From a virus, in the IMG/VR virus record IMGVR_UViG_3300036859_000196, positions 1 to 48,217 of that record: a stretch of DNA of 48,217 bases, one strand, 5' to 3'. Below are positions 21,905 to 39,623 of the stretch, in pieces (position 1 is the first letter of the stretch; each line of letters starts with the position of its first letter). Position numbers and translations under genes: made by a program. Below the pieces are notes generated by a model. The model had not been told where the DNA came from, made no database searches, and saw nothing but the letters and a program-made list of their open reading frames with translations.

Positions 21905-22483
21905 TCACATAGGTGCGACCGAGCCCCGCCGGCCTTCGGGCTGGCGGTCGGGCGGCGCATCTCCAGGTCGCGGGCGGCCTGCATTCGGCCAATCTGCGGG
22001 ACGATGCCCGGCCAGGTACGCTTCTATGAGCTGGCGCTGCGGCGGCCTGATGCGGCGCTGGCCGGATTCCAGAGCGTAGCCGATTTGCCTGGTTGGCTTG
22101 TACCCGAGCACGCCAGCCATCTGGTCAAGGGTGAGGCCGAGCTGGTGCCGGGCCTGCCGGAAATACTCGCGAGCCTCGATCGCGTCTGCCGCGGCAGCAC
22201 CGTGCAATCCGGTCAGTGCGCGCACCTCCGTCAGCGTGGGTCGATCAAACTTGGACGTGCCTAGCACCACAAGGCCACGCTCGGGGAAGGGCCCCTCGCT
22301 GTCCTGATCCATGGCGCGGTGCGAGCCGTCGGCCATCAGCCGGTAGGACACCACGTCGCTATCTCGGTCATGGATGCTGCAGACGCCTATGCCTCTGACG
22401 GTGCACTCATCGGATGTGATGTAGAGGATTGTGCGGCCGTACCTGTCGAGAACCTGGTGCCAGGCGGTTGCTGACCGTGGCAT
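21905..22483 (-). CDS. XRE-family HTH regulator with N-terminal extension
   Basis: C-terminal GLTLDQMAGVLGY...GQRRIRPPQRQLIEAYLAGHRPADWP; paralogue of 25713..26006. Confidence 0.55.
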   Translation of the reverse strand: MPRSATAWHQVLDRYGRTILYITSDECTVRGIGVCSIHDRDSDVVSYRLMADGSHRAMDQDSEGPFPERGLVVLGTSKFDRPTLTEVRALTGLHGAAAADAIEAREYFRQARHQLGLTLDQMAGVLGYKPTRQIGYALESGQRRIRPPQRQLIEAYLAGHRPADWPNAGRPRPGDAPPDRQPEGRRGSVAPM

Positions 22484-23062: not shown

Positions 23063-23218
23063 CGTCCCTCTATGTGTCTCGATGAGCTGACTATCGCTGA
23101 TTTGTGCATGTAACACAAGCGTATTACGTGATGCGCGGCATGTCAAGCCTTAAAGCGTACATTTCCGTTCCTTCGGGCTTGGGTTCGATGGTTCATCGGG
23201 GAATGGGGAATTATATAC

Positions 23219-23247
23219 TTGACGTACTGACCTTGAGCGTCTACATT
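23219..23247 (+). promoter_or_regulatory. Sigma70-like promoter inside the left inverted repeat
   Basis: TTGACG, 17-nt spacer, TACATT upstream of transposase start. Confidence 0.4.
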
Positions 23248-23275
23248 GGCGGTCATGAGATCAGGGGATGCCGCC

Positions 23276-24202
23276 ATGAACCTCACCAATTCGATTTTCC
23301 AGGACGCCGAGAAGGCCCGCGAGTTTCTTGAGGCTCAGCGTTGGCCGGATGGTCCCATTTGCCCCCACTGCGGCGTTATCGCTGACGCCACCAAACTCGC
23401 CGGCAAGAGCACGCGAGCTGGCGTCTACAAGTGCAAGTCTTGCGAGAAGCCTTTCACCGTCACGGTCGGCACCGTATTCGAGCGCTCAAAGATCCCACTC
23501 AACAAGTGGTTGCTGGCGACGTTTCTGCTCACGGCTTCCAAGAAGGGAATGAGCAGCCACCAGATCCACCGTAGTCTGGAGGTTACTTACAAGACCGCTT
23601 GGTTCATGACCCATCGCATCCGCGAGGCCATGCGTGACATCAATGCCGGCCCCATCGGTGGCGAGGGCGGCGACCTGGAGAGCGACGAAACTTACATCGG
23701 CGGCAAGGCCAAGAACGCCCACAAGGGCAAGCCCGAGCCGAAGAAGCATGCCGTGCATGCCCTTGTGGAGCGCGGCGGTCGTGTGCGCGCCACCCATGTC
23801 GCCGACGTGACCGCCAGGACGTTGCGCTCGGTCATGGAGAAGCACGCAGACAAGCGTTCTACGCTTCATACGGACGACGGCCTCACGGGCTTGTCCATTG
23901 GCAAGGACTTCGCCGGCAGCACAACCGTCAACCACAGCGCTGGCGAGTATCACCGCTACAAGGACGGCGCCGGCATCCAATCTGCCGAGAGCTTCTTTGC
24001 GATCCTGAAGCGGCAGGTCTACGGAACGCACCACGCGATCAGCGAGGCGCATCTGCAGCGCTATGTGACGGAAGCCACCTTCAAGTGGAACCACCGCATT
24101 GCGCTGGGCGTGGACGACACCGGCCGCGCCAAGGCTGCTCTCAAGTCCATCGGCGGCAAGCGTTTGACCTATGGGACGATTCGTGGAGCCCAGAACGCCT
24201 AA
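23276..24202 (+). CDS. IS1595-family transposase (ISXO2-like DDE)
   Basis: N-terminal zinc ribbon RWPDGPICPHCG...YKCKSCEKPFTVTVGTVFERSKIPLNKWL then LEVTYKTAWFMTHRIREAM. Confidence 0.85.
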   Translation: MNLTNSIFQDAEKAREFLEAQRWPDGPICPHCGVIADATKLAGKSTRAGVYKCKSCEKPFTVTVGTVFERSKIPLNKWLLATFLLTASKKGMSSHQIHRSLEVTYKTAWFMTHRIREAMRDINAGPIGGEGGDLESDETYIGGKAKNAHKGKPEPKKHAVHALVERGGRVRATHVADVTARTLRSVMEKHADKRSTLHTDDGLTGLSIGKDFAGSTTVNHSAGEYHRYKDGAGIQSAESFFAILKRQVYGTHHAISEAHLQRYVTEATFKWNHRIALGVDDTGRAKAALKSIGGKRLTYGTIRGAQNA

Positions 24203-24500
24203 GCAGAAAGATCGGCGGCGACGCTGCCGATAGTCCCGCTTATCGGCTGCCACCGAATCGTGTCATGAGCCCCATTGCGGCGTTTCTGAGCCAAACGACT
24301 GCGGGAACAATGGGGCTGAGCACGACGGGGATCGTAGCTACACGGACACCTAGATAGGACGCAAAGACAAGCCTTGCGAGGCGGTCTTTGGCGTCCTGCT
24401 CGTCGTGGGCGCGGATCTCGAACTGCCAGACCTTGCCACCGTGGTTGTAGCGGAACAGGTGCGTCTGCATATCGTCAACAACACCAAGAGGTGTGAACAC

Positions 24501-24663
24501 CATGTATGCCGAGATATGGAAGAGCGCGCTGAATGGCCTTTGGTACTGGCACATCCGCAGCGGCAACCATGAGATCGTGAGCCAGAGCGAGGGCTACACG
24601 ACTAAGACTGCAGCTCTCCACGGACTGCGGCTGATCTTCGACGGTCCTGCCTACGACCGCTAA
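24501..24663 (+). CDS. DUF1508 (YegP-like) small protein, IS passenger
   Basis: Hand-translated 53 aa MYAEIWKSALNGLWYWHIRSGNHEIVSQSEGYTTKTAALHGL...; AAGAGG RBS. Confidence 0.5.
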
Positions 24664-24701
24664 CCCAGGAGACAGGAGACCAAGGGGCTCGCTGGCGAGC
24701 A

Positions 24702-24920
24702 TCACCCCTTGGCTCCCTTCCCAGACGAACGGGGGTCGCGCTTCGGCGCGGCCCCTTTCGTTTTCTCTGCTTTATCGACCGGCTTATGCGGTTTGTGAGG
24801 CGTACTGAGCATGCGACGAATCGTGCGCTCAAACTGCTGAGCGTCAATCCCGCCTTTCGCCTCAGTATCTGCCGTACCACGCTTCGGCATCAGACTGTGA
24901 ACCACCTTCAATTTCGACAT
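24702..24920 (-). CDS. Small Lys-rich basic protein, IS passenger
   Basis: Internal Met MSKLKVVHSLMPKRG... of ORF 24702..25118. Confidence 0.3.
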   Translation of the reverse strand: MSKLKVVHSLMPKRGTADTEAKGGIDAQQFERTIRRMLSTPHKPHKPVDKAEKTKGAAPKRDPRSSGKGAKG

Positions 24921-25371
24921 CGATGCGCCCCCAAGAATCTGATGAGTCCAGGGGGGCACGGGGCGTGGGGCCGGCGTAGTGCGGCTGCTGGGCTTCCCAT
25001 CCGGGCGGCCGTGGGTGCAAATCCCACCGGCTCCAGCGCCCCGTGTATCGTCAACCGTTGCATGCAGCTCTGCTGCGTGCAAGCGGGCTATTTGTGCTCT
25101 GACTCGGTAAGCAAGCACTTAACGCCGCATGGCCTCAGTGGTTGCATCGCTCGTCCCCTCGCTTGCCAGCCCGCGCTTCGCGCCGGGCGGTCCCTACCAA
25201 GCTACCGGTTAGTCTCTAGAGCTACCGATGGTGCTTGACTGCCACGATTCGCGGTGGAAGCAAGAGCTTGAAAATTTCACGAATCACTTATTCCGCGAAC
25301 GTGGAATCGATTGGCAACAGTACGTCAAGTATATAATTCCCGGGGAATGGCTGGTGCCGGTACAGGCGGCG

Positions 25372-25712: not shown

Positions 25713-26006
25713 CTATCTCTTGGCGGGCAACCTATCCCGCATTTTCTCCATGCACTCGGGGGCCGAAGCCGGCCGCAATGCTTTCGGGGTGCAGACAGCG
25801 AGCAGCTCCGGCCAATCCCCCGGGCGATAGCCGGCGAGGTATGCTGCGACTAGGCGGCGCTGTGCTGGTCTGATCCCACGACGGCCATTCTCCATGTGGT
25901 GTACCTGAGACTTGGCCTGCTCGCCCTCGTATCCCAGCATCATCGCCATCTGCTCAAAAGTAAGGCCCAGATCGCGCCGGGCCCGCTTGAATTCGTCGGG
26001 GGTCAT
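25713..26006 (-). CDS. XRE-family HTH regulator
   Basis: GLTFEQMAMMLGY...ENGRRGIRPAQRRLVAAYLAGYRPGDWP. Confidence 0.6.
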   Translation of the reverse strand: MTPDEFKRARRDLGLTFEQMAMMLGYEGEQAKSQVHHMENGRRGIRPAQRRLVAAYLAGYRPGDWPELLAVCTPKALRPASAPECMEKMRDRLPAKR

Positions 26007-26539: not shown

Positions 26540-26800
26540 TCAGTGTGAGAAGCCCGTCTCCCAGCACCGGGAGCCGTCGCCGCGGGTCACATACTCGCCG
26601 CACTCGGGGCATCCGTAGCGGCGGCCCTTGCGGGCATTGCCGCTGGAGTGACTGTGATCCTCGCTGATCGAAACCAGGCTGAGGTCCACCCAGAATTCCT
26701 TGCTCCCGTCCCAGAATTGGAGCTTGGCCTTCTCCCCGAACTTGGTCTTGCCCGACCAAGCCAGCTTGTACTTGCGACCCTTGTAAGTAGCGACTTGCAT
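26540..26800 (-). CDS. Hypothetical protein with C-terminal zinc-ribbon-like CPEC...C motif
   Basis: 86-aa ORF, lower GC. Confidence 0.4.
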   Translation of the reverse strand: MQVATYKGRKYKLAWSGKTKFGEKAKLQFWDGSKEFWVDLSLVSISEDHSHSSGNARKGRRYGCPECGEYVTRGDGSRCWETGFSH

Positions 26801-26894
26801 TTTTGAACCCCTAGGAAGGAGCGGCTGACAATGATCAATATACTTTCGCGGTCACAGAAAGCCAAGGACGACGAACGGAGGGGCGCCGATCACA

Positions 26895-26921
26895 TTGTTG
26901 TGACTTCTGAAGTCACAACAA
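26895..26921. promoter_or_regulatory. Perfect 27-bp palindrome (13-bp arms), operator candidate
   Basis: TTGTTGTGACTTC-T-GAAGTCACAACAA about 20 bp upstream of the RHH gene. Confidence 0.5.
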
Positions 26922-26941
26922 ATCAGCGACGATTTGCAGCG

Positions 26942-27145
26942 ATGGCGACGACCACACGAAAGCGCATGGGGCGGCCCCCGAAGCCGCCGGAGGCCCGGAT
27001 GATCGATGTCGGTCTGCGGCTCGATCCTGGGACGCATGCAACGGTCACCGCCATGGCGGTTGAGCGCGGCATTGAGCGGGCTGCGATGATCCGCGAATTG
27101 TTGGCGGAGGCGCTCGCTGCGCGGGCGAAGAGGGATAAGAGATGA
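26942..27145 (+). CDS. Ribbon-helix-helix (CopG-like) DNA-binding protein
   Basis: RKRMGRPPK...LRLDPGTHATVTAMAVERGIERAAMIRELLAEAL. Confidence 0.5.
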   Translation: MATTTRKRMGRPPKPPEARMIDVGLRLDPGTHATVTAMAVERGIERAAMIRELLAEALAARAKRDKR

Positions 27146-27157
27146 CCAGTCGTCGCC

Positions 27158-27405
27158 ACATCCGCGAGGCCATGCGTGACATCAATGCCGGCCCCATCGG
27201 TGGCGAGGGCGGCGACCTGGAACGCACCACGCGATCAGCGAGGCGCATCTGCAGCGCTATGTGACGGAAGCCACCTTCAAGTGGAACCACCGCATCGCGC
27301 TTGGCGTAGACGATACTGCTCGTGCCAAGGCCGCTCTCAAGTCCATTGGCGGCAAGCGCTTGACGTACGGGACAACTCGTGGAGCCCAGAACGCCTAAGC
27401 AGCGG
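27158..27405 (+). pseudogene. Internally deleted remnant of the IS1595 transposase gene
   Basis: Near-identical to 23618-23691 joined to 24035-24207 (343-bp internal deletion); no inverted repeats nearby. Confidence 0.7.
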
Positions 27406-27437: not shown

Positions 27438-27908
27438 CTATGCTGCCTTCGACTTAGCTGACTCGAAATCCAGCTCCACTTTGTCGCCTTGCCAAAGGAC
27501 GATTGGAACCTTCTTCCCATCCGCCTTCACCTCAATCGCGACAATCCCCAACCTCTCTAGGCTGCGCAGCGTGCGAGTTAGATTTGACAGGGCGCGATCT
27601 GACTTCTCAGCCAACTCAGTCAATGACTGAGGCTGTGAATTTCGGATGATCTCCAGCAACAACATGTTCTTCTCGGTCAACACCTTGAAGAGCGCATCTA
27701 GCGACGACACCCAAACCCTCGGCTCGTGGGCCGACGGCTTCTCCCCGCGCGCGATCCTTATCATTCGCTCCCGAACGTAACTGGGCGGAGCGATGCCAAC
27801 TCGCAAAGTCTTCGTTACTGCCACGGCACGCCCTCGTCCTCGTCCGCCGCGTCGCACTCCAGCCATATGATGTCTCGTGTGATGGTGCCGCTCAGTTCTA
27901 CGCTCCAT
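27438..27908 (-). CDS. Winged-helix DNA-binding protein
   Basis: LLLEIIRNSQPQSLTELAEKSDRALSNLTRTLRSLERLGIV; start codon uncertain. Confidence 0.45.
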   Translation of the reverse strand: MERRTERHHHTRHHMAGVRRGGRGRGRAVAVTKTLRVGIAPPSYVRERMIRIARGEKPSAHEPRVWVSSLDALFKVLTEKNMLLLEIIRNSQPQSLTELAEKSDRALSNLTRTLRSLERLGIVAIEVKADGKKVPIVLWQGDKVELDFESAKSKAA

Positions 27909-28060: not shown

Positions 28061-28366
28061 TCAATCTCTCGTTTCCAGGAACCCAGCAGCGCCGACAGTC
28101 CACGTGAAACCGCCGCGCCGCATCATCTCCTCGAACCCGACAACCTCCTCCTGTCTGATGGTGAGGTCGCCGCACTTGCCGCCGTTGATCCAGACACCAT
28201 AGGTGGTGTGGCCCGGAGTGTCATGCAGGACGCGGAACGAAGCGCTGCGGATGTCCACTTGCTTGTCGCTCTTCGGCATCGCGGGGGGGCATCCTTCGTG
28301 GTGAATGAGTTCTGCTTCAAGCTTCGCGAACAACGCGTGCGGCTCCAAGCTCAGCACGCGCGCCAT
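28061..28366 (-). CDS. Hypothetical protein
   Basis: High third-position GC in minus frame; overlaps upstream gene by 16 nt. Confidence 0.5.
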   Translation of the reverse strand: MARVLSLEPHALFAKLEAELIHHEGCPPAMPKSDKQVDIRSASFRVLHDTPGHTTYGVWINGGKCGDLTIRQEEVVGFEEMMRRGGFTWTVGAAGFLETRD

Positions 28367-28599
28367 CGCGAACACGTGGCGCAGTCCAAGGCATCGTCCC
28401 TAGGGCAGGCGCACTTGATGTCCCGGTCGGCGATCAGCTTCATCGTTCGGCGCTCCGCTGCGTCGAGCGCGAGGCGCACAAGACGGTCAGCCTTCTCTCG
28501 CCCAAGTTCTTTGGTGCATGAGGCATGCAGACTGGCGAGGTTCTTCGCCATGTGGGACGCCCACTCCTCGCCGGACAGTTTCAGCGGCATTTGGCTCAT
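28351..28599 (-). CDS. Cys-rich small protein (C-terminal CxC...CxxC)
   Basis: ATG 28599 with AAGGA RBS; codon bias drops upstream of this start. Confidence 0.45.
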   Translation of the reverse strand: MSQMPLKLSGEEWASHMAKNLASLHASCTKELGREKADRLVRLALDAAERRTMKLIADRDIKCACPRDDALDCATCSRWRAC

Positions 28600-28795
28600 C
28601 CTTGCGCAGTTGGCGGCGAGCCGCACCGAGGACACGTCGCCGGCTCCGTCACATAGTTTTCGGAGGCGCCAGAAGAGGGGATGATCGACCTGACGCGATA
28701 GTGCAGAGAATGTAGTACGTAATCGCGTGGCTGTCAAGTCGCCTCACGAGCTGACACAGCTTGACTCTTGCCGTCGTGTCTGCTATGTGTCAGTC

Positions 28796-28969
28796 ATGAG
28801 CACCATGGCGCGACTCAAGAAGCTGTTTACGCTCTACCTTGACCCTAAGCTGCTGGCGCGGCTGGAAGCGTGGCTGTCCAGGCAGGACGTGCCACCCAGC
28901 AGGACGGCCGTAGTCGAGGCGGCCCTGCGCGAGTTCCTGGAGAAGCGCGAGAAGGGGCGGAAAGCGTGA
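28796..28969 (+). CDS. Ribbon-helix-helix (CopG/Arc-like) protein
   Basis: MARLKKLFTLYLDPKLLARLEAWL...SRTAVVEAALREFLE; TTGACT-17-TATGTG promoter-like upstream. Confidence 0.55.
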   Translation: MSTMARLKKLFTLYLDPKLLARLEAWLSRQDVPPSRTAVVEAALREFLEKREKGRKA

Positions 28970-30985: not shown

Positions 30986-31035
30986 TGGCGGTCCCGGCAG
31001 GGCTTGAACCCGCAACCTCCGCGTTCGAAGCGCGG
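30986..31035 (-). other. attP core: 3' ~50-nt fragment of a tRNA-Arg(UCG)-like gene
   Basis: Minus strand reads anticodon stem-loop CCGCG-CTTCGAA-CGCGG, T-arm GCGGG-TTCAAGC-CCTGC, acceptor 3' strand, CCA; no D-arm or 5' acceptor strand. Confidence 0.55.
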
Positions 31036-31120
31036 CCACACGGCGCCACATGTGTGATTTTGCTGGGGTTTTTCGCGCGCATCGTCGTCCAAATCGCCCG
31101 CTCTTCGCATTTCGTTCTCG

Positions 31121-31936
31121 CTAGGTCGGTTCACATGAACCGACCAACGTCCGCGTATCCGAGAAGCGGGGGGGGGCCGCAGGGGTGCTGGCGAGTTCAC
31201 CCACCATCCACTTCGCGGCATCGGCCTTGATCTGCTCGAACACGACGGGGTGCTGGCTCTTGAAGTCCGGCATGCGCGACGACGCCACGTATCCCTGCGC
31301 GGTCGCGTCGAGCCAAATCTGCGTCCAGCGCGCCGCGTCGAGTCCGAGCAGTTTGAAGTCGCGTCGCGTCACGGGTCTCCGCTCCAGAATGGCAACGATC
31401 TTGAGCGCCTTGATCTTCCACGCCGTCAGTTGGACCGGGGCACTATGGCCGGCGCCGCTGTCGGGGACATAGTCAGGGAGGGCGACCCGCTTCACCGGGC
31501 ACCACTCGTGCCAATGTCGGTCATCGCCCCAGCGCTCGGCGACGTGCGGCAGATCGGGTTCGAACCTGCGGCGGTAGACCCGCTCGGACGGTGGCCATAT
31601 CGTTATCACAGTGAGTCCGAGCCAGTTGCAGATCGTGCCGAGCCCGTTCTGCTTTCCTCCTTCTGGCACCAGCACGGCACGACAATCCGGGCCGATCTCG
31701 GCGGCTCCGTACCAACGTTCGGGCAGCGCCTGCACCGCCACCGTGTTGTTGAGGATGAGCTTGGCCTCGATGCCAATCTGGAAGCCGTCTTCCCTGCGAA
31801 CGAGCAGGATGTCCCAGCCGCCAGTCTCGGCATACGCAACCCAGGCGTCACCCTTTGTGACCTGCGTGATGAACTCGGCGCAGAGCGCGACCTCGCTCTC
31901 GAAACCGGGCTTGCGGGATCGCTTCGTGGCCGTCAT
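31121..31936 (-). CDS. Hypothetical protein with PD-(D/E)xK nuclease-like motif
   Basis: Starts at ATG overlapping integrase stop; motif DILLVRREDGFQIGIEAKL; G9 tract encodes PPP near C-terminus. Confidence 0.45.
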   Translation of the reverse strand: MTATKRSRKPGFESEVALCAEFITQVTKGDAWVAYAETGGWDILLVRREDGFQIGIEAKLILNNTVAVQALPERWYGAAEIGPDCRAVLVPEGGKQNGLGTICNWLGLTVITIWPPSERVYRRRFEPDLPHVAERWGDDRHWHEWCPVKRVALPDYVPDSGAGHSAPVQLTAWKIKALKIVAILERRPVTRRDFKLLGLDAARWTQIWLDATAQGYVASSRMPDFKSQHPVVFEQIKADAAKWMVGELASTPAAPPRFSDTRTLVGSCEPT

Positions 31937-33039
31937 TCCCTGCCCCGCTTGTCCTCGATCGCCTTCGGCTCCCGCAGCGACAGCGCATTCGCCGCGCGCT
32001 GCAGGTAGTCCGGGTGGAAGCGCGCATAGACGCGCTCGGTGATCGCCGTGGAAGTGTGGCCCATGTACTGGCTGATCTCCGCCATTGGCAGCCGGGCCTG
32101 GGCCATCCAGACACCGGCGGTGTGGCGGAGCACGTAGGGTGTGACATCGTCGAGCTTGGCGCGGCGTGCGGCAGCCACGATGGCCTGGCGCACGCCCTGG
32201 CGGCCAGTGATGGGAGCCTCGTTGTACTCGATTACCCACTCGGTCTGAGCCATCTCGCGCGCCAGCTTTAGCGTCTCATAGGCCTCCTCATTGAGCGGCA
32301 CGCGAGCGCGGCCCTTGCGGGTGGCATCGCGCTCCGGGTCGTCGAGGTTCACGTGACCGAAGTAGGTGACCCCGCTCTGGGGGTGCGTCCACTTCTTGAG
32401 CGTGACGCGGTCCCATGTGAGCTGCAGGATGTGGCTCGGCCGGCCGGCGGTGGCGAACGCCAGCTGCAGCCACACCTTGACGTGGAACGCCTTGGCGGCG
32501 TCGATCAGTCGGACGGCCTCAGCCTTGGTCAACCACCGCTCACGCGGCCGGGCTGCCGGCGGGCGCTCGATCTCCGGACGGTCGCCTGAATAGAGCTTCT
32601 TCCGCTTGCCAAAGCCGAGCGCCGCAGAGAGATAAACCAGCTCGGACCGGATGCCGCCGTTCGACACCCCATGACCGCGCCGATGCCTGGCATAGGCCCG
32701 GCAGGTGGTGTCCTCGATCTGGTCCGGCATCAGGTGCCCGAAGTGTGATGCCATCGGTTTCCAGGCCTCGCGCATGCGGCGCGCGTCCTTGCCGACCGCC
32801 TCGCGGTCCTTGACGTACAGGTCGTAGATCGAGGCCATGGCAACCGCCTTCCCGTCTTTCCCCTGGCGCTGTGCCTCGGAGAGGCCGCTGTTCCAGCGCG
32901 CTACCTCGCGGTCAGCATCCGGCCGATTGCCCGTTGTCGCTTTGATGCCGAGCGCATGGCGCTGTTTGCTGCGTCCATGCCCCCAGACGACGCACCAGAC
33001 GCCGCGGTGTCGTCCGCGCCTGTAGACTTGATCCCCCAT
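31933..33039 (-). CDS. int: Tyrosine integrase
   Basis: N-terminal RGVWCVVWGHGRSKQRHALG arm-type region; C-terminal VLRHTAGVWMAQA...YMGHTSTAITERVYARF catalytic region. Confidence 0.85.
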   Translation of the reverse strand: MGDQVYRRGRHRGVWCVVWGHGRSKQRHALGIKATTGNRPDADREVARWNSGLSEAQRQGKDGKAVAMASIYDLYVKDREAVGKDARRMREAWKPMASHFGHLMPDQIEDTTCRAYARHRRGHGVSNGGIRSELVYLSAALGFGKRKKLYSGDRPEIERPPAARPRERWLTKAEAVRLIDAAKAFHVKVWLQLAFATAGRPSHILQLTWDRVTLKKWTHPQSGVTYFGHVNLDDPERDATRKGRARVPLNEEAYETLKLAREMAQTEWVIEYNEAPITGRQGVRQAIVAAARRAKLDDVTPYVLRHTAGVWMAQARLPMAEISQYMGHTSTAITERVYARFHPDYLQRAANALSLREPKAIEDKRGRE

Positions 33040-33233
33040 CGCACCAGCAACGCCTCCAGATCCTCGCGCCTCACGCGCACCATGCCGTCGATCCGAACCA
33101 CGGGTAGGCCCGTGCCGGGTTGATCCTTCTCGCGCTCGATCAGCGCGTAGACCTTGCTCTTCGAGCAATCGAGCTCCCGCGCGACGCTGCGGACCGAGAG
33201 AAGACGCGGCGGCAGAACTGCGGTGTCGGTCAT
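32901..33233 (-). CDS. xis: Excisionase / AlpA-like HTH protein
   Basis: LLSVRSVARELDCSKSKVYALIE...LPVVRIDGMVRVRREDLEALL; 3' end overlaps int start. Confidence 0.5.
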   Translation of the reverse strand: MTDTAVLPPRLLSVRSVARELDCSKSKVYALIEREKDQPGTGLPVVRIDGMVRVRREDLEALLVRWGIKSTGADDTAASGASSGGMDAANSAMRSASKRQRAIGRMLTAR

Positions 33234-33451
33234 GGCCCCGCCCTCTCATAGACCCGCGCCAGCTCGGCCCGCGTATAGGCCCCGTCGTAGCGGTCGCTCG
33301 CGGCGTCGACGACCCGGCAGCCCGCCTCGAATTCACGCATCTCGCGGCGGTGCATCCACCACAGCATCGCAAGGCCGCCAGCGAGACCGACGACGCAGCC
33401 GACGAGGCCGCCAAGGGCGCCGACGGCGAGAAGGATCGGATCGAAAGTCAT
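33230..33451 (-). CDS. Small membrane protein
   Basis: Hydrophobic N-terminus ILLAVGALGGLVGCVVGLAGGLAMLWW. Confidence 0.4.
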   Translation of the reverse strand: MTFDPILLAVGALGGLVGCVVGLAGGLAMLWWMHRREMREFEAGCRVVDAASDRYDGAYTRAELARVYERAGP

Positions 33452-38392: not shown

Positions 38393-38839
38393 CTAACGCC
38401 CGCCGCGTCGGACCCAGGTTATCGGCGCGGCCCAATCGATCAAGACGTTTTCCATGGGCCGCGACAAGGGGTTATAGGACCGCAGCGTGTAGCGATCCGG
38501 CATAGTGCCCTTGTCGAGGATCTTAATCAGCGTCTCGCCGTCGTCGGTCCGCAGCGCGCAGTCGAGCCCGATCAGGTTGTCGAGATACTTGCCGGCCCGT
38601 CTCTGGCAGAACAGCTGATCGCCGTCGCGATACGTGGGCGACATCGAGTCGCCGCGAACCTCGATTGCAAAGGCTCCCGACCCCGCCTCGAAAGCGAAGT
38701 CGGCCACCTCGGGCGGGCGGCCCTTTGTCGGCTCCTGGAAGGGCGTCCAGCGCTCCGCGCCATTTGCAATGCCCACCAGCGGGATCTGGAGCTGGAAGCG
38801 CTCGTCGCCCGACAAGAGCATCATGGGGTGCACGTCCAA
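38393..38839 (-). CDS. S24 (LexA/CI-type) peptidase domain, probable C-terminal part of a frameshifted CI-like repressor
   Basis: VRGDSMSPTYRDGDQLF (Ser) and TLIKIL (Lys); HTH-like sequence continues upstream in this frame and in the neighbouring frame. Confidence 0.65.
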   Translation of the reverse strand: MDVHPMMLLSGDERFQLQIPLVGIANGAERWTPFQEPTKGRPPEVADFAFEAGSGAFAIEVRGDSMSPTYRDGDQLFCQRRAGKYLDNLIGLDCALRTDDGETLIKILDKGTMPDRYTLRSYNPLSRPMENVLIDWAAPITWVRRGGR

Positions 38840-39081
38840 GACGTGGGCCAGCTTGACGAACTTATCGATGCTTGGATCGTGGCCGCGATTGAGCCAGTCA
38901 CGCGCCCCCCAATCTTTAGCGACGCCTCCCGCATGCTCATGCCCTTCTGCTTGAGCAGCCGGAGGGCGCGCCTGCGCCAGTCCAAGTCCATGGCGACGCG
39001 GTAGGGGCTTTTTCCATCGTGCACAATCCTTGAGGGAAATTTGCCCTTGTCATAGGGGTTTTTTCCCCCTATAAGGCGGTC

Positions 39082-39297
39082 ATGAGCGAAGCGCAATCCT
39101 TCCTGGTCGAGATCGAAAAGTTTCTTGTGCGCACGGGCATGACGCCCGCGGCGTTCGGCAAAAGGACGGCCAACGATGGCAAGTTCGTCGATCGGCTGCG
39201 GCGCGGCGGTCAGGTGACCTTGGGCACTGCCGAACGTATCCGCGAGTTTATCGCTGGGTACGAGGTGCCGCGCGAGCGGCGGCGTCGGGTGGCTTAA
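39082..39297 (+). CDS. Cro-like small regulator
   Basis: 71-aa ORF divergent from repressor; GMTPAAFGKRTANDGKFVDRLRRGGQVTLGTAERI. Confidence 0.4.
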   Translation: MSEAQSFLVEIEKFLVRTGMTPAAFGKRTANDGKFVDRLRRGGQVTLGTAERIREFIAGYEVPRERRRRVA

Positions 39298-39623
39298 CCA
39301 TGTGGCGTACTCCGGGCAACCGAGTGCGCCAGTTGCGTTTGTTGCACCAACCTCCAGCTTGGCCCGCACGCGCCAAGCTCCCGAGGTTGACCCTGCAACG
39401 TGTGCGTGCTGCGGCGCAAGTGGGGAATTCCACAGCCCGCCGATAGTCAGTTGCGATGTGTCTGAAATCGCACAGTCCCCGTAGCGTTCCATTGCGTCGG
39501 TGGCGGTCAGCCGGGCCGAAGAGGTCGCCCGCCGCGTGGCGGCGGGCGCGGATTGAAACACGTTGCTGCGCGTTGCTTCACGTTGCGTCCAGAGTCACCT
39601 CAACGCACCGCAAGGGACTGCGC

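What the first reader, a model, noticed from the sequence alone, without database searches (positions are those of the whole stretch)
26895..26921. Perfect 27-bp palindrome upstream of a ribbon-helix-helix gene
TTGTTGTGACTTC-T-GAAGTCACAACAA has 13-bp perfect arms and lies about 20 bp before the RHH ORF start, a standard autoregulatory operator arrangement. The RHH gene is followed directly by the transposase remnant.
Basis: partly seen in the sequence, partly recalled or inferred. Interest (0 to 1): 0.45.

Follow-up and report, generated by a model that had tools for sequence, protein, structure and literature searches.

The report
Operator palindrome of a phage RHH repressor
A perfect 27-bp palindrome sits 20 bp in front of a small ribbon-helix-helix repressor gene in a temperate phage genome; related genes carry their own palindromes at the same spot, so it is most likely that repressor's ordinary self-regulating binding site.

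Summary
The palindrome TTGTTGTGACTTC-T-GAAGTCACAACAA is at 26895-26921 exactly as described. It is the longest perfect palindrome in the 48-kb contig, and 0 of 200 composition-matched simulations reach 13-bp arms. It lies in a 141-bp, AT-enriched intergenic region between a leftward operon (first gene 26540-26800) and a 67-aa gene (26942-27145). Profile, AlphaFold and Foldseek evidence show that gene encodes a ribbon-helix-helix (RHH) protein. The public 104-aa gene call, which would bury the palindrome in coding sequence, is an over-extension.

The contig is a temperate siphovirus-like phage. Its CI-like immunity region is elsewhere (about 38.4 kb), so this is an accessory regulatory cassette. 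Seven homologous RHH loci from metagenomes share the intergenic architecture:
- a conserved leftward promoter;
- a conserved ATCAC-N6-GTGA block;
- in about five of the seven, a locus-specific palindrome 20-40 bp before an ATG that lacks a Shine-Dalgarno sequence.

In four loci the same motif recurs in the spacer of the leftward promoter. Flanking genes are not conserved; only the RHH gene travels with these sites.

Best reading: this is the RHH protein's operator. It overlaps the -35 region of a probably leaderless own promoter, giving negative autoregulation. Control of the divergent promoter is possible but weakly supported here. It is ordinary in kind, in an uncharacterised family. No binding data exist.

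The parts
26895..26921 (.). Perfect 27-bp palindrome (13-bp arms, 1 central base); proposed proximal operator of the RHH repressor. Contains inverted TGTGAC (26899-26904) and GTCACA (26912-26917) boxes.
   Evidence: Positional equivalents in homologous loci.
26888..26904 (.). Family-wide conserved block GATCACATTGTTGTGAC (ATCAC-N6-GTGA). Its right half is the left arm of the palindrome. It adds a third TCACA box at 26890-26894.
   Evidence: Alignment of 8 loci: ATCA, T, G and GA are invariant columns. Raw sequences.
26851..26856 (+). Fourth RTCACA box (GTCACA), in the spacer of the predicted leftward promoter; possible weak distal operator.
   Evidence: 4 RTCACA boxes in 67 bp; 0 of 300 simulations match this, but the count is post hoc. 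The shared 6-mer is not significant in the distal/proximal test for the window.
26837..26865 (-). Predicted leftward sigma-70-type promoter P_L (-35 TTGGCT 26865-26860, 17-nt spacer, -10 TATATT 26842-26837) driving the 86-aa gene and the operon behind it.
   Evidence: 9 of 12 matches; 0.1 expected. An equivalent top-scoring minus-strand promoter sits at the same relative position in L027, L004, L031, L002 and L009.
26905..26933 (+). Candidate own promoter P_R of the RHH gene (-35 TTCTGA 26905-26910 at the palindrome centre; -10 GACGAT 26928-26933). It would start transcription at or next to the ATG, giving a leaderless mRNA. Weak consensus match; inferred.
   Evidence: candidates with a -10 ending 7-9 nt before the ATG in the window, L027, L004, L031 and L009. 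No Shine-Dalgarno sequence in any of 8 loci (read).
26942..27145 (+). RHH repressor gene, 67 aa: basic N-terminal arm with invariant GRPPKP, beta-strand RMIDVGLRL, two helices.
   Evidence: Pfam RHH_1 below threshold for this protein alone. The family profile hits the NikR RHH domain at E=2e-4, plus CopG, Arc and antitoxins. 22 of 50 relatives hit PF01402. AF2 pLDDT 87.6 with H29-42 and H46-66. Foldseek top hits are all RHH, target-normalised TM about 0.8-0.9 and rmsd about 1 A for the best.
26540..26800 (-). First gene of the divergent leftward operon (86 aa, weak zinc-ribbon-like hit). Followed by 72-, 70- and 97-aa (XRE-type HTH) genes down to 25713.
   Evidence: Not conserved in homologous loci.
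27157..27402 (+). Internally deleted IS1595-family transposase remnant filling the gap between the RHH gene and the convergent winged-helix gene (27438-27908). Not part of the regulatory module; the RHH C-terminus is intact.
   Evidence: D1, D2.

Best explanation
The palindrome is the proximal operator of the 67-aa ribbon-helix-helix protein encoded 20 bp downstream.

Shown: the protein has the RHH fold. The palindrome is non-random. Homologous RHH genes carry homologous upstream regions, and about five of seven have a locus-specific palindrome or inverted repeat at the same position. Only the RHH gene is consistently linked to these sites.

Inferred: two RHH dimers, each inserting its beta-ribbon into a major groove, bind the two arms (TGTGAC/GTCACA boxes about 13 bp apart centre to centre). 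Further contacts may come from the neighbouring TCACA box at 26890 and from the basic GRPPKP N-terminal arms in the AT-rich DNA. The gene has no Shine-Dalgarno sequence in any of 8 loci. The best promoter candidates place a -10 element 7-9 nt before the ATG, so the mRNA is probably leaderless and the palindrome centre coincides with the -35 region. Bound repressor would therefore occlude RNA polymerase, giving negative autoregulation.

In four relatives the same motif is repeated in the spacer of the conserved divergent promoter P_L, so the family as a whole acts as a two-promoter switch in front of variable cargo genes. In this window the P_L spacer holds only a single GTCACA box, so co-repression of the leftward operon is possible but weakly supported.

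The cassette lies in the accessory region between the lysis genes and the integrase, far from the CI-like immunity region. In layout it resembles the secondary immunity (immI: mnt/arc) region of phage P22.
For: Palindrome real and unique. RHH fold. True start at 26942.

Homologous intergenic architecture in 8 loci. Proximal palindromes in relatives:
- L002: TGTGAGTTCCGCGAAACTCACA at -41..-20
- L008: GAGTTTCGCGAAACTC at -38..-23
- L009: GTTTCGCGAAAC at -36..-25
- L027: TCGCG-ACA-CGCGA
.

The same motif recurs in the P_L spacer of four loci (shared 8-16-mers; 0-51 of 2000 shuffles match).

A more distant subfamily (L015, L019, L022, L023) has 8-12-bp palindromes (TTGTGGCCACAA, TGTAATTACA, GTAGCTAC) between clear TTGACT and TATAAT-like hexamers, the classic autorepression layout.

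Operator sequence differs where the beta-strand residues differ: window RMIDVGLRL; P0003 KFVVAGLRL; P0004 KWVFVGLRL; P0005 KWTYVATRL. The two loci with an identical strand, KFVDVGLKL (L004 and L031), share CTTGATATG.

Neighbouring genes are not conserved. P_L is conserved in position. Phage context and a separate CI-like repressor.
Against: There are no binding or expression data.

No relative closer than 55% identity exists in the searched collections. The exact palindrome is found nowhere else except as chance coding-sequence matches. The window's own site therefore has no direct covariation test.

The left arm overlaps a block (ATCAC-N6-GTGA) that is conserved regardless of beta-strand sequence. 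That block could be a promoter element or a site for a different, possibly host, factor.

L004, L031 and L021 lack a clear perfect palindrome at the equivalent position.

The own-promoter assignment rests on 3-of-6 hexamer matches.

In the window the distal/proximal shared motif is only 6 nt, which is not significant.

Arms of 13 bp are longer than typical RHH half-sites, so part of the symmetry may serve something else.
Confidence: 0.65

Rival explanations
1. The palindrome, or at least its left half with the conserved ATCAC-N6-GTGA block, is the binding site of a different DNA-binding protein. Candidates are a host factor (the block loosely resembles the IHF consensus WATCAANNNNTTR; from memory, not tested) or another phage regulator, such as the XRE-type HTH protein of the leftward operon (25713-26006) or the convergent winged-helix protein (27438-27908).
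For: The block is conserved in all 8 loci irrespective of RHH beta-strand sequence. Long perfect palindromes are at least as typical of HTH dimers as of RHH proteins. Two HTH-type regulators are encoded within 1.2 kb.
Against: Neither HTH gene, nor any other neighbour, is conserved next to the homologous intergenic regions. The variable, locus-specific part of the site tracks the only conserved gene, the RHH. A host factor would not explain locus-specific palindromes duplicated within one locus.
Confidence: 0.15
2. The palindrome acts at the RNA level, as a 5'-UTR hairpin (stability, RNase III processing or translational control) of the RHH transcript or of an antisense transcript.
For: It would fold into a 12-bp stem of about -14 kcal/mol. 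The relatives' palindromes would also fold.
Against: There is no U-tract, and it lies between divergent genes, so it is not a terminator. Folding of the surrounding 66 nt is not unusual (z = -1.8; 14 of 200 shuffles fold as well). In relatives the same sequence, not merely pairing, is repeated at a second place inside a promoter spacer, which points to protein recognition of DNA. If the mRNA is leaderless, the palindrome is not transcribed.
Confidence: 0.05
3. The RHH protein is an orphan type II antitoxin whose toxin gene was destroyed by the IS insertion, and the palindrome is the toxin-antitoxin operon operator.
For: RHH antitoxins with palindromic operators are common (for example the reviews PMC4803016 and PMC7167474, listed by title and abstract, not read). 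The closest structural hits include antitoxins. An IS remnant sits exactly where a toxin gene would be.
Against: In L001-L003, L008, L009, L031 and L033 the RHH gene is followed within 2-20 nt by a convergent gene. No co-directional toxin gene follows it in those loci. The protein ends right after helix 2 and has no C-terminal toxin-binding extension. Its C-terminus matches that of its homologues, so it is not truncated.
Confidence: 0.03
4. The palindrome is a chance or mobile-element scar, such as abutted IS ends or a MITE, with no regulatory role.
For: Two IS1595-family sequences lie within 4 kb.
Against: It has no similarity to the IS inverted repeats GGGAATTATATACTTGACGTACTG. The arm is unique in the window. 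0 of 200 simulations reach this length. The surrounding region is homologous to IS-free loci elsewhere.
Confidence: 0.02

Closest known systems
Phage P22 immI region: Mnt and Arc RHH repressors with symmetric operators between divergent promoters (Pant/Pmnt)
   Same: Small RHH repressors of a temperate phage, encoded in a secondary regulatory region far from the main CI-type immunity region. Palindromic operators lie in a short divergent promoter region, and binding represses transcription, including autoregulation. Arc chains are among the best structural matches (1baz_B: rank 3, TM 0.87 by target, rmsd 1.0 A).
   Different: There is no significant sequence similarity beyond the fold (Arc E=0.08 with the family profile). 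The palindrome is 27 bp, against 21-bp (Arc) and 17-bp (Mnt) operators (operator sizes from established knowledge). No antirepressor homologue was detected in the leftward operon. Mnt has a C-terminal tetramerisation coiled coil that this 67-aa protein lacks.
CopG (pMV158) and the CopG/Arc/MetJ superfamily (Pfam RHH_1, PF01402)
   Same: Beta-alpha-alpha fold. An autoregulated small repressor whose pseudo-symmetric operator overlaps its own promoter. 22 of 50 family members hit PF01402. CopG-DNA complexes are among the top structural matches.
   Different: The window protein itself scores below the Pfam threshold (16.2 against 20.5 bits). It carries a 20-residue basic N-terminal arm with invariant GRPPKP, which CopG lacks. 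CopG is co-transcribed with repB, whereas this gene is monocistronic.
RHH regulators with DNA-contacting N-terminal arms: ArtA of plasmid pSK41 (PMC2777438) and AmrZ of Pseudomonas
   Same: An RHH domain preceded by a flexible N-terminal arm. For ArtA this arm is discussed in connection with alternate DNA-binding modes (title, abstract and term counts; the paper was not read). AmrZ-DNA complex chains are among the structural matches. All are stand-alone regulators, not antitoxins.
   Different: The arm sequences are unrelated. The GRPPKP motif resembles an AT-hook core (one family member hits PF02178), but minor-groove binding is only a conjecture. The operators of ArtA and AmrZ are not long perfect palindromes (from memory).
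NikR (RHH domain plus metal-sensing domain) with a widely spaced palindromic operator
   Same: Best sequence-profile match (E=2e-4 to the RHH domain). The operator is a long palindrome of about 28 bp (GTATGA-N16-TCATAC in E. coli; from memory).
   Different: NikR needs a C-terminal tetramerisation and nickel-binding domain to bridge distant half-sites. This protein has no such domain (67 aa), so adjacent-dimer binding is expected instead.

Membership tests
Ribbon-helix-helix (CopG/Arc/MetJ) superfamily | Significant sequence match to an RHH profile | tested here: inconclusive
   The single sequence scores PF01402 E=0.01, 16.2 bits, below the 20.5 cut-off. A profile of 50 relatives hits the NikR RHH domain (E=2e-4), 2kke, Rv0298, CopG-family proteins and Arc. 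22 of 50 relatives pass E<=0.01 to PF01402, best 1.2e-9. Membership therefore rests on transitive evidence.
Ribbon-helix-helix (CopG/Arc/MetJ) superfamily | N-terminal beta-strand followed by two helices (beta-alpha-alpha) of about 45 residues | tested here: met
   The AF2 model has pLDDT 87.6, an extended segment at about residues 20-27, and helices H29-42 and H46-66. Almost all of the best 28 Foldseek PDB hits are RHH proteins; the best have target-normalised TM about 0.8-0.9 and rmsd about 1 A.
Ribbon-helix-helix (CopG/Arc/MetJ) superfamily | Obligate dimer forming a two-stranded antiparallel beta-ribbon that reads the major groove | not testable with these tools
   Only a monomer was modelled. 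The strand is not assigned by DSSP in the monomer, as expected for RHH proteins.
Autoregulated repressor with an operator at its own promoter | Symmetric or repeated site overlapping, or within a few bp of, the gene's own promoter | tested here: inconclusive
   The palindrome ends 20 nt before the ATG. No leader or Shine-Dalgarno sequence is present. The candidate -35 falls at the palindrome centre, but the hexamers match only 3 of 6 each. The layout is clear in the distant subfamily, where the palindrome lies between TTGACT and TATAAT.
Autoregulated repressor with an operator at its own promoter | Site co-inherited with the regulator gene across relatives | tested here: met
   8 loci share a homologous upstream region, and about five relatives carry a locus-specific palindrome or inverted repeat at the same position. 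Neighbouring genes are not conserved.
Autoregulated repressor with an operator at its own promoter | Protein binds the site and lowers transcription | not testable with these tools
   This needs EMSA or footprinting and reporter assays.
Type II toxin-antitoxin RHH antitoxin | Co-transcribed toxin gene immediately downstream, and a C-terminal toxin-binding extension | tested here: not met
   In most homologous loci examined the RHH gene is followed by a convergent gene. The protein ends at helix 2.
P22 immI-type secondary immunity (Mnt/Arc/Ant) | RHH repressor(s) controlling an antirepressor gene from divergent promoters | tested here: inconclusive
   The divergent layout, the RHH protein and the location away from the CI-like repressor (38393-38839) are met. 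No antirepressor family was detected in the leftward genes, whose functions are unknown.

The most novel reading that the evidence does not exclude
The GRPPKP-armed RHH proteins, together with their conserved intergenic region of about 110-145 bp, form a portable two-promoter switch cassette. The region comprises a conserved leftward promoter, a conserved ATCAC-N6-GTGA block, and a rapidly diverging palindrome on the -35 region of a leaderless own promoter. Phages and islands of Alphaproteobacteria-like hosts place this cassette in front of unrelated cargo genes. Specificity would be re-programmed by co-evolution of two or three beta-strand residues with the palindrome. The AT-hook-like arm would read the invariant block.
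Probability: 0.25. Interest if true: 0.45.

Novelty: new member of a known kind. Interest (0 to 1): 0.27.

Why it matters
It assigns a likely function and target to an unannotated 'hypothetical protein' and corrects its start codon. It also marks out an accessory regulatory cassette in an uncultured temperate phage. The family (129 representatives at E<=1e-3 among 1.84 billion) has no characterised member and no homologue among cultured phages. Its paired, fast-diverging operators and short beta-strand could make a compact natural set for studying how RHH specificity evolves, or a source of orthogonal repressor/operator pairs. The mechanism proposed is textbook, so a specialist would not be surprised.

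Tried and rejected
- **Same 13-mer arm elsewhere in the window.** Only 3-mismatch chance hits turned up, so no regulon is visible.
- **Exact core TGTGACTTCNGAAGTCACA in IMG/VR.** Two contigs matched, both inside the same structural-protein coding sequence and unrelated.
- **Cultured phages and plasmids.** blastn 'distant' with the 2.3-kb region and tblastn with the RHH protein against cultured phages found nothing. The IS against plasmids found nothing either.
- **Closer relatives.** Searches of genome contigs and metagenome contigs returned only relatives at 47% identity or less, so the window's own site has no close covariation set.
- **Rfam.** The window has only a tRNA-like hit at 30989-31047, and the related loci have nothing.
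- **Link between the palindrome and the IS inverted repeats.** Rejected: no similarity.
- **Conserved partner gene.** Neither the convergent winged-helix gene nor the divergent first gene is a conserved partner.
- **Own-promoter assignment.** The E. coli consensus (only the leftward promoter passes) and a Caulobacter-type consensus recalled from memory (TTGTGAC-N12-AACAAATC fits the window but not the relatives) were both dropped as inconsistent.
- **Two-operator model in the window itself.** The shared distal/proximal motif is only 6 nt, which is not significant.
- **Contigs without DNA.** Contigs for P0002 and P0008 could not be read because the sample files were too large.

Full report
**Observation.** The sequence TTGTTGTGACTTC-T-GAAGTCACAACAA occupies 26895-26921, exactly as reported.
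- The 13-nt arm has no other copy in the window with fewer than 3 mismatches.
- A scan of the whole window shows it is the longest perfect palindrome; the next best have 10-bp arms. In 200 first-order Markov simulations none reached 13-bp arms and 3 reached 12.
- It is 37% GC. It lies in a 141-bp intergenic stretch of 50% GC, inside a genome of about 65% GC.

**Context.** The window is a complete 48,217-bp metagenomic contig. It encodes portal, major head, tape-measure and tail-fibre proteins, an endolysin, an integrase and a large terminase, so it is a temperate siphovirus-like phage.
- A CI-like repressor (38393-38839, minus strand) faces rightward early genes. That is the main immunity region.
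- The finding lies elsewhere, in the accessory region between the lysis genes (about 20-21 kb) and the integrase (31.9-33.4 kb).
- That region also holds an intact IS1595-family element at 23206-25341, with 24-bp perfect inverted repeats and an 8-bp target duplication GGGGAATG.
- The palindrome sits between a leftward operon and a rightward small gene. The operon consists of an 86-aa gene (26540-26800), then 72-, 70- and 97-aa genes, the last an XRE-type HTH.

**The gene.**
- *Start codon.* The public call (P0001, 104 aa) starts at ATG 26831 and would include the palindrome. All relatives are 65-71 aa and begin at the Met equivalent to 26942. Third-position GC is 0.49 in the supposed extension, against 0.78 in the body and 0.64-0.91 in other genes of the phage. 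The extension also overlaps a conserved non-coding promoter (below). The gene is therefore 26942-27145 (67 aa).
- *RHH fold.* Alone the protein is sub-threshold for Pfam RHH_1. A 50-sequence family profile hits the NikR RHH domain (E=2e-4), an archaeal RHH NMR structure, RHH antitoxins, CopG and Arc. 22 of 50 relatives hit PF01402. The AlphaFold model (pLDDT 87.6) has an extended strand followed by helices 29-42 and 46-66. Its best PDB matches are almost all RHH proteins.
- *N-terminal arm.* The protein carries a basic arm with an invariant GRPPKP motif.
- *C-terminus.* It matches the homologues, so the IS remnant that starts 12 nt after the stop codon (27157-27402; two segments 100% and 92% identical to the intact copy) has not truncated it.

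**Comparative evidence.** The family is small and uncharacterised.
- Only 3 clusters were found by the word-indexed search. The exhaustive search found 129 representatives at E<=1e-3 among 1.84 billion proteins. There is no homologue among 50,697 cultured-phage records.
- I recovered DNA for seven informative relatives: L002 (L001 and L003 carry the identical region), L004, L008, L009, L021, L027 and L031. They are 39-55% identical to the window protein.

Their upstream regions align with the window's and share three features:
1. *A leftward promoter at a fixed position.* In the window it is TTGGCT-17-TATATT, found by the consensus scan with 0.1 expected. Equivalents are TTGACT-TACATT, TTGACT-CATACT and so on in five relatives.
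2. *An invariant block ATCAC-N6-GTGA.* In the window this is GATCACATTGTTGTGAC, 26888-26904.
3. *A locus-specific palindrome 20-40 nt before the ATG.*
   - L002: TGTGAGTTCCGCGAAACTCACA
   - L008: GAGTTTCGCGAAACTC
   - L009: GTTTCGCGAAAC
   - L027: TCGCG-ACA-CGCGA
   - L004: a weaker GTCAT-N8-ATGAC
   - L031 and L021: none that is clear
.

Further points:
- In L002, L008, L009 and L027 the same motif recurs inside the spacer of the leftward promoter. The shared words are 8, 16, 10 and 9 nt long, matched by 51, 0, 1 and 14 of 2000 shuffles respectively.
- A more distant subfamily (L015, L019, L022, L023) places a palindrome such as TTGTGGCCACAA or TGTAATTACA between obvious TTGACT and TATAAT-like hexamers.
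- The genes flanking the module differ from locus to locus. They include a membrane protein, a 66/74-aa family, unrelated small proteins, a LuxR-type regulator, and various convergent genes. The RHH gene is the only constant companion of these sites.
- Operator sequence changes where the putative DNA-reading strand changes: window RMIDVGLRL; P0003 KFVVAGLRL; P0004 KWVFVGLRL; P0005 KWTYVATRL. The two loci with an identical strand, KFVDVGLKL (L004 and L031), share CTTGATATG. This is suggestive, not statistical.

**Mechanism.**
- *Leaderless mRNA.* None of the eight loci has a Shine-Dalgarno-like sequence in the 20 nt before the ATG (read). A simple sigma-70 scoring finds candidates whose -10 ends 7-9 nt before the ATG in the window, L027, L004, L031 and L009. 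A leaderless mRNA is therefore likely; the lambda cI transcript from P_RM is the classic example (established knowledge).
- *Promoter occlusion.* The corresponding -35 position falls on the centre of the proximal palindrome in each locus. In the window this is TTCTGA at 26905-26910. An RHH dimer of dimers on the palindrome would thus exclude RNA polymerase. The hexamer matches are weak (3 of 6), so this step is inferred.
- *Extra boxes.* The window has four RTCACA boxes in 67 bp (26851, 26889, 26899 and 26912); 0 of 300 simulations match this. The one at 26851 lies in the P_L spacer. The count is post hoc, and the distal/proximal test is not significant for the window. I therefore treat co-repression of the leftward operon as possible only.

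**Rivals.**
- *A different protein binding the conserved block or palindrome* is the main alternative (0.15). No other gene is co-inherited with the sites, which counts against it.
- *An RNA hairpin* is unlikely. There is no U-tract, the genes are divergent, the fold is unremarkable against shuffles (z = -1.8), and relatives show sequence-level repetition inside a promoter spacer.
- *An orphan antitoxin* is contradicted by the convergent downstream genes in most relatives and by the lack of a C-terminal extension.
- *An IS scar* is excluded, because there is no similarity to the IS ends and the region is homologous to IS-free loci.

**Comparison and verdict.** In function and layout the closest analogue is the P22 immI region: the Mnt/Arc RHH repressors with symmetric operators between divergent promoters, away from the main immunity region. 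In autoregulation logic it resembles CopG, and in having an N-terminal arm it resembles ArtA and AmrZ. Membership of the RHH superfamily is met by fold and by transitive profile evidence. Membership of the antitoxin class is not met. The kind of element is well known. What is new is only an uncharacterised family and its conserved cassette architecture.

Noticed in passing
window 23206-25341: Intact IS1595-family element of 2,136 bp. It has 24-bp perfect terminal inverted repeats (GGGAATTATATACTTGACGTACTG) and an 8-bp target-site duplication GGGGAATG (23198-23205 and 25342-25349). The transposase gene is at 23246-24202. About 1.1 kb of extra sequence with small ORFs (24240-25238) lies inside the repeats, so it may carry passenger genes. 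No match in PLSDB plasmids.
   Followed up: partly
window 27157-27402: The transposase remnant is a mosaic. 27159-27221 is 100% identical to 23617-23679 and 27219-27402 is 92% identical to 24023-24206, joined across a 343-bp internal deletion at a GGA overlap. Both inverted repeats are missing. The unequal identities of the two pieces are unexplained; gene conversion is one possibility.
   Followed up: partly
window 26816-26833: A strong-looking Shine-Dalgarno sequence (AAGGAG) 9 nt before ATG 26831 on the plus strand led the public annotation to a 104-aa ORF. It lies within the predicted 5' leader of the leftward mRNA. On that strand it reads CUCCUU, which could pair with the AGGGG Shine-Dalgarno sequence of the 86-aa gene. 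A possible translational control hairpin; not tested.
   Followed up: no
L002 440-660; L004 2700-2860; L009 380-500; L031 1270-1385: Downstream of the conserved leftward promoter, several related loci share a 100-200-nt non-coding stretch (for example CTGCTGTGGGGGATGGTCTCA) before the first leftward gene. It could be a conserved 5' leader or small RNA. It has no Rfam match and is absent from the window, whose leader is only about 30 nt.
   Followed up: partly
window 38393-39300: The main immunity region: a CI-like repressor (38393-38839, minus strand; phrog_4 and phrog_6201) divergent from small rightward genes (38828-39004, 39082-39297). Operators were not examined.
   Followed up: no
window 30989-31047 (-): A tRNA-like sequence just above the Rfam threshold (30.8 bits against 29), about 0.9 kb from the integrase gene (31933-33414, minus strand). 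It may be a tRNA fragment marking attP.
   Followed up: no
window 28793-28969 (+): A second, unrelated RHH gene (58 aa; PF01402 E=2e-4, above threshold) 1.7 kb downstream. It also lies in a divergent arrangement, with the 128-aa gene 28351-28737 on the minus strand. Its upstream region was not examined for operators.
   Followed up: no
window 25713-26006 (-) and 21905-22483 (-): Two proteins match the same PHROG transcriptional-regulator family (phrog_14076; E=1e-21 and 1e-16), one on each side of the IS element. The leftward transcription unit may once have been continuous across the IS insertion site.
   Followed up: no
L012 3830-3980 (Reyranella aquatilis KCTC 52223 contig6): The only relative in an isolate genome (41% identity) sits directly after what looks like the 3' end of a tRNA gene (GGTTCGATCCC...CCACCA) and a hairpin. 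This suggests an island integrated at a tRNA gene in an alphaproteobacterium, and hints at the host range of the family.
   Followed up: no
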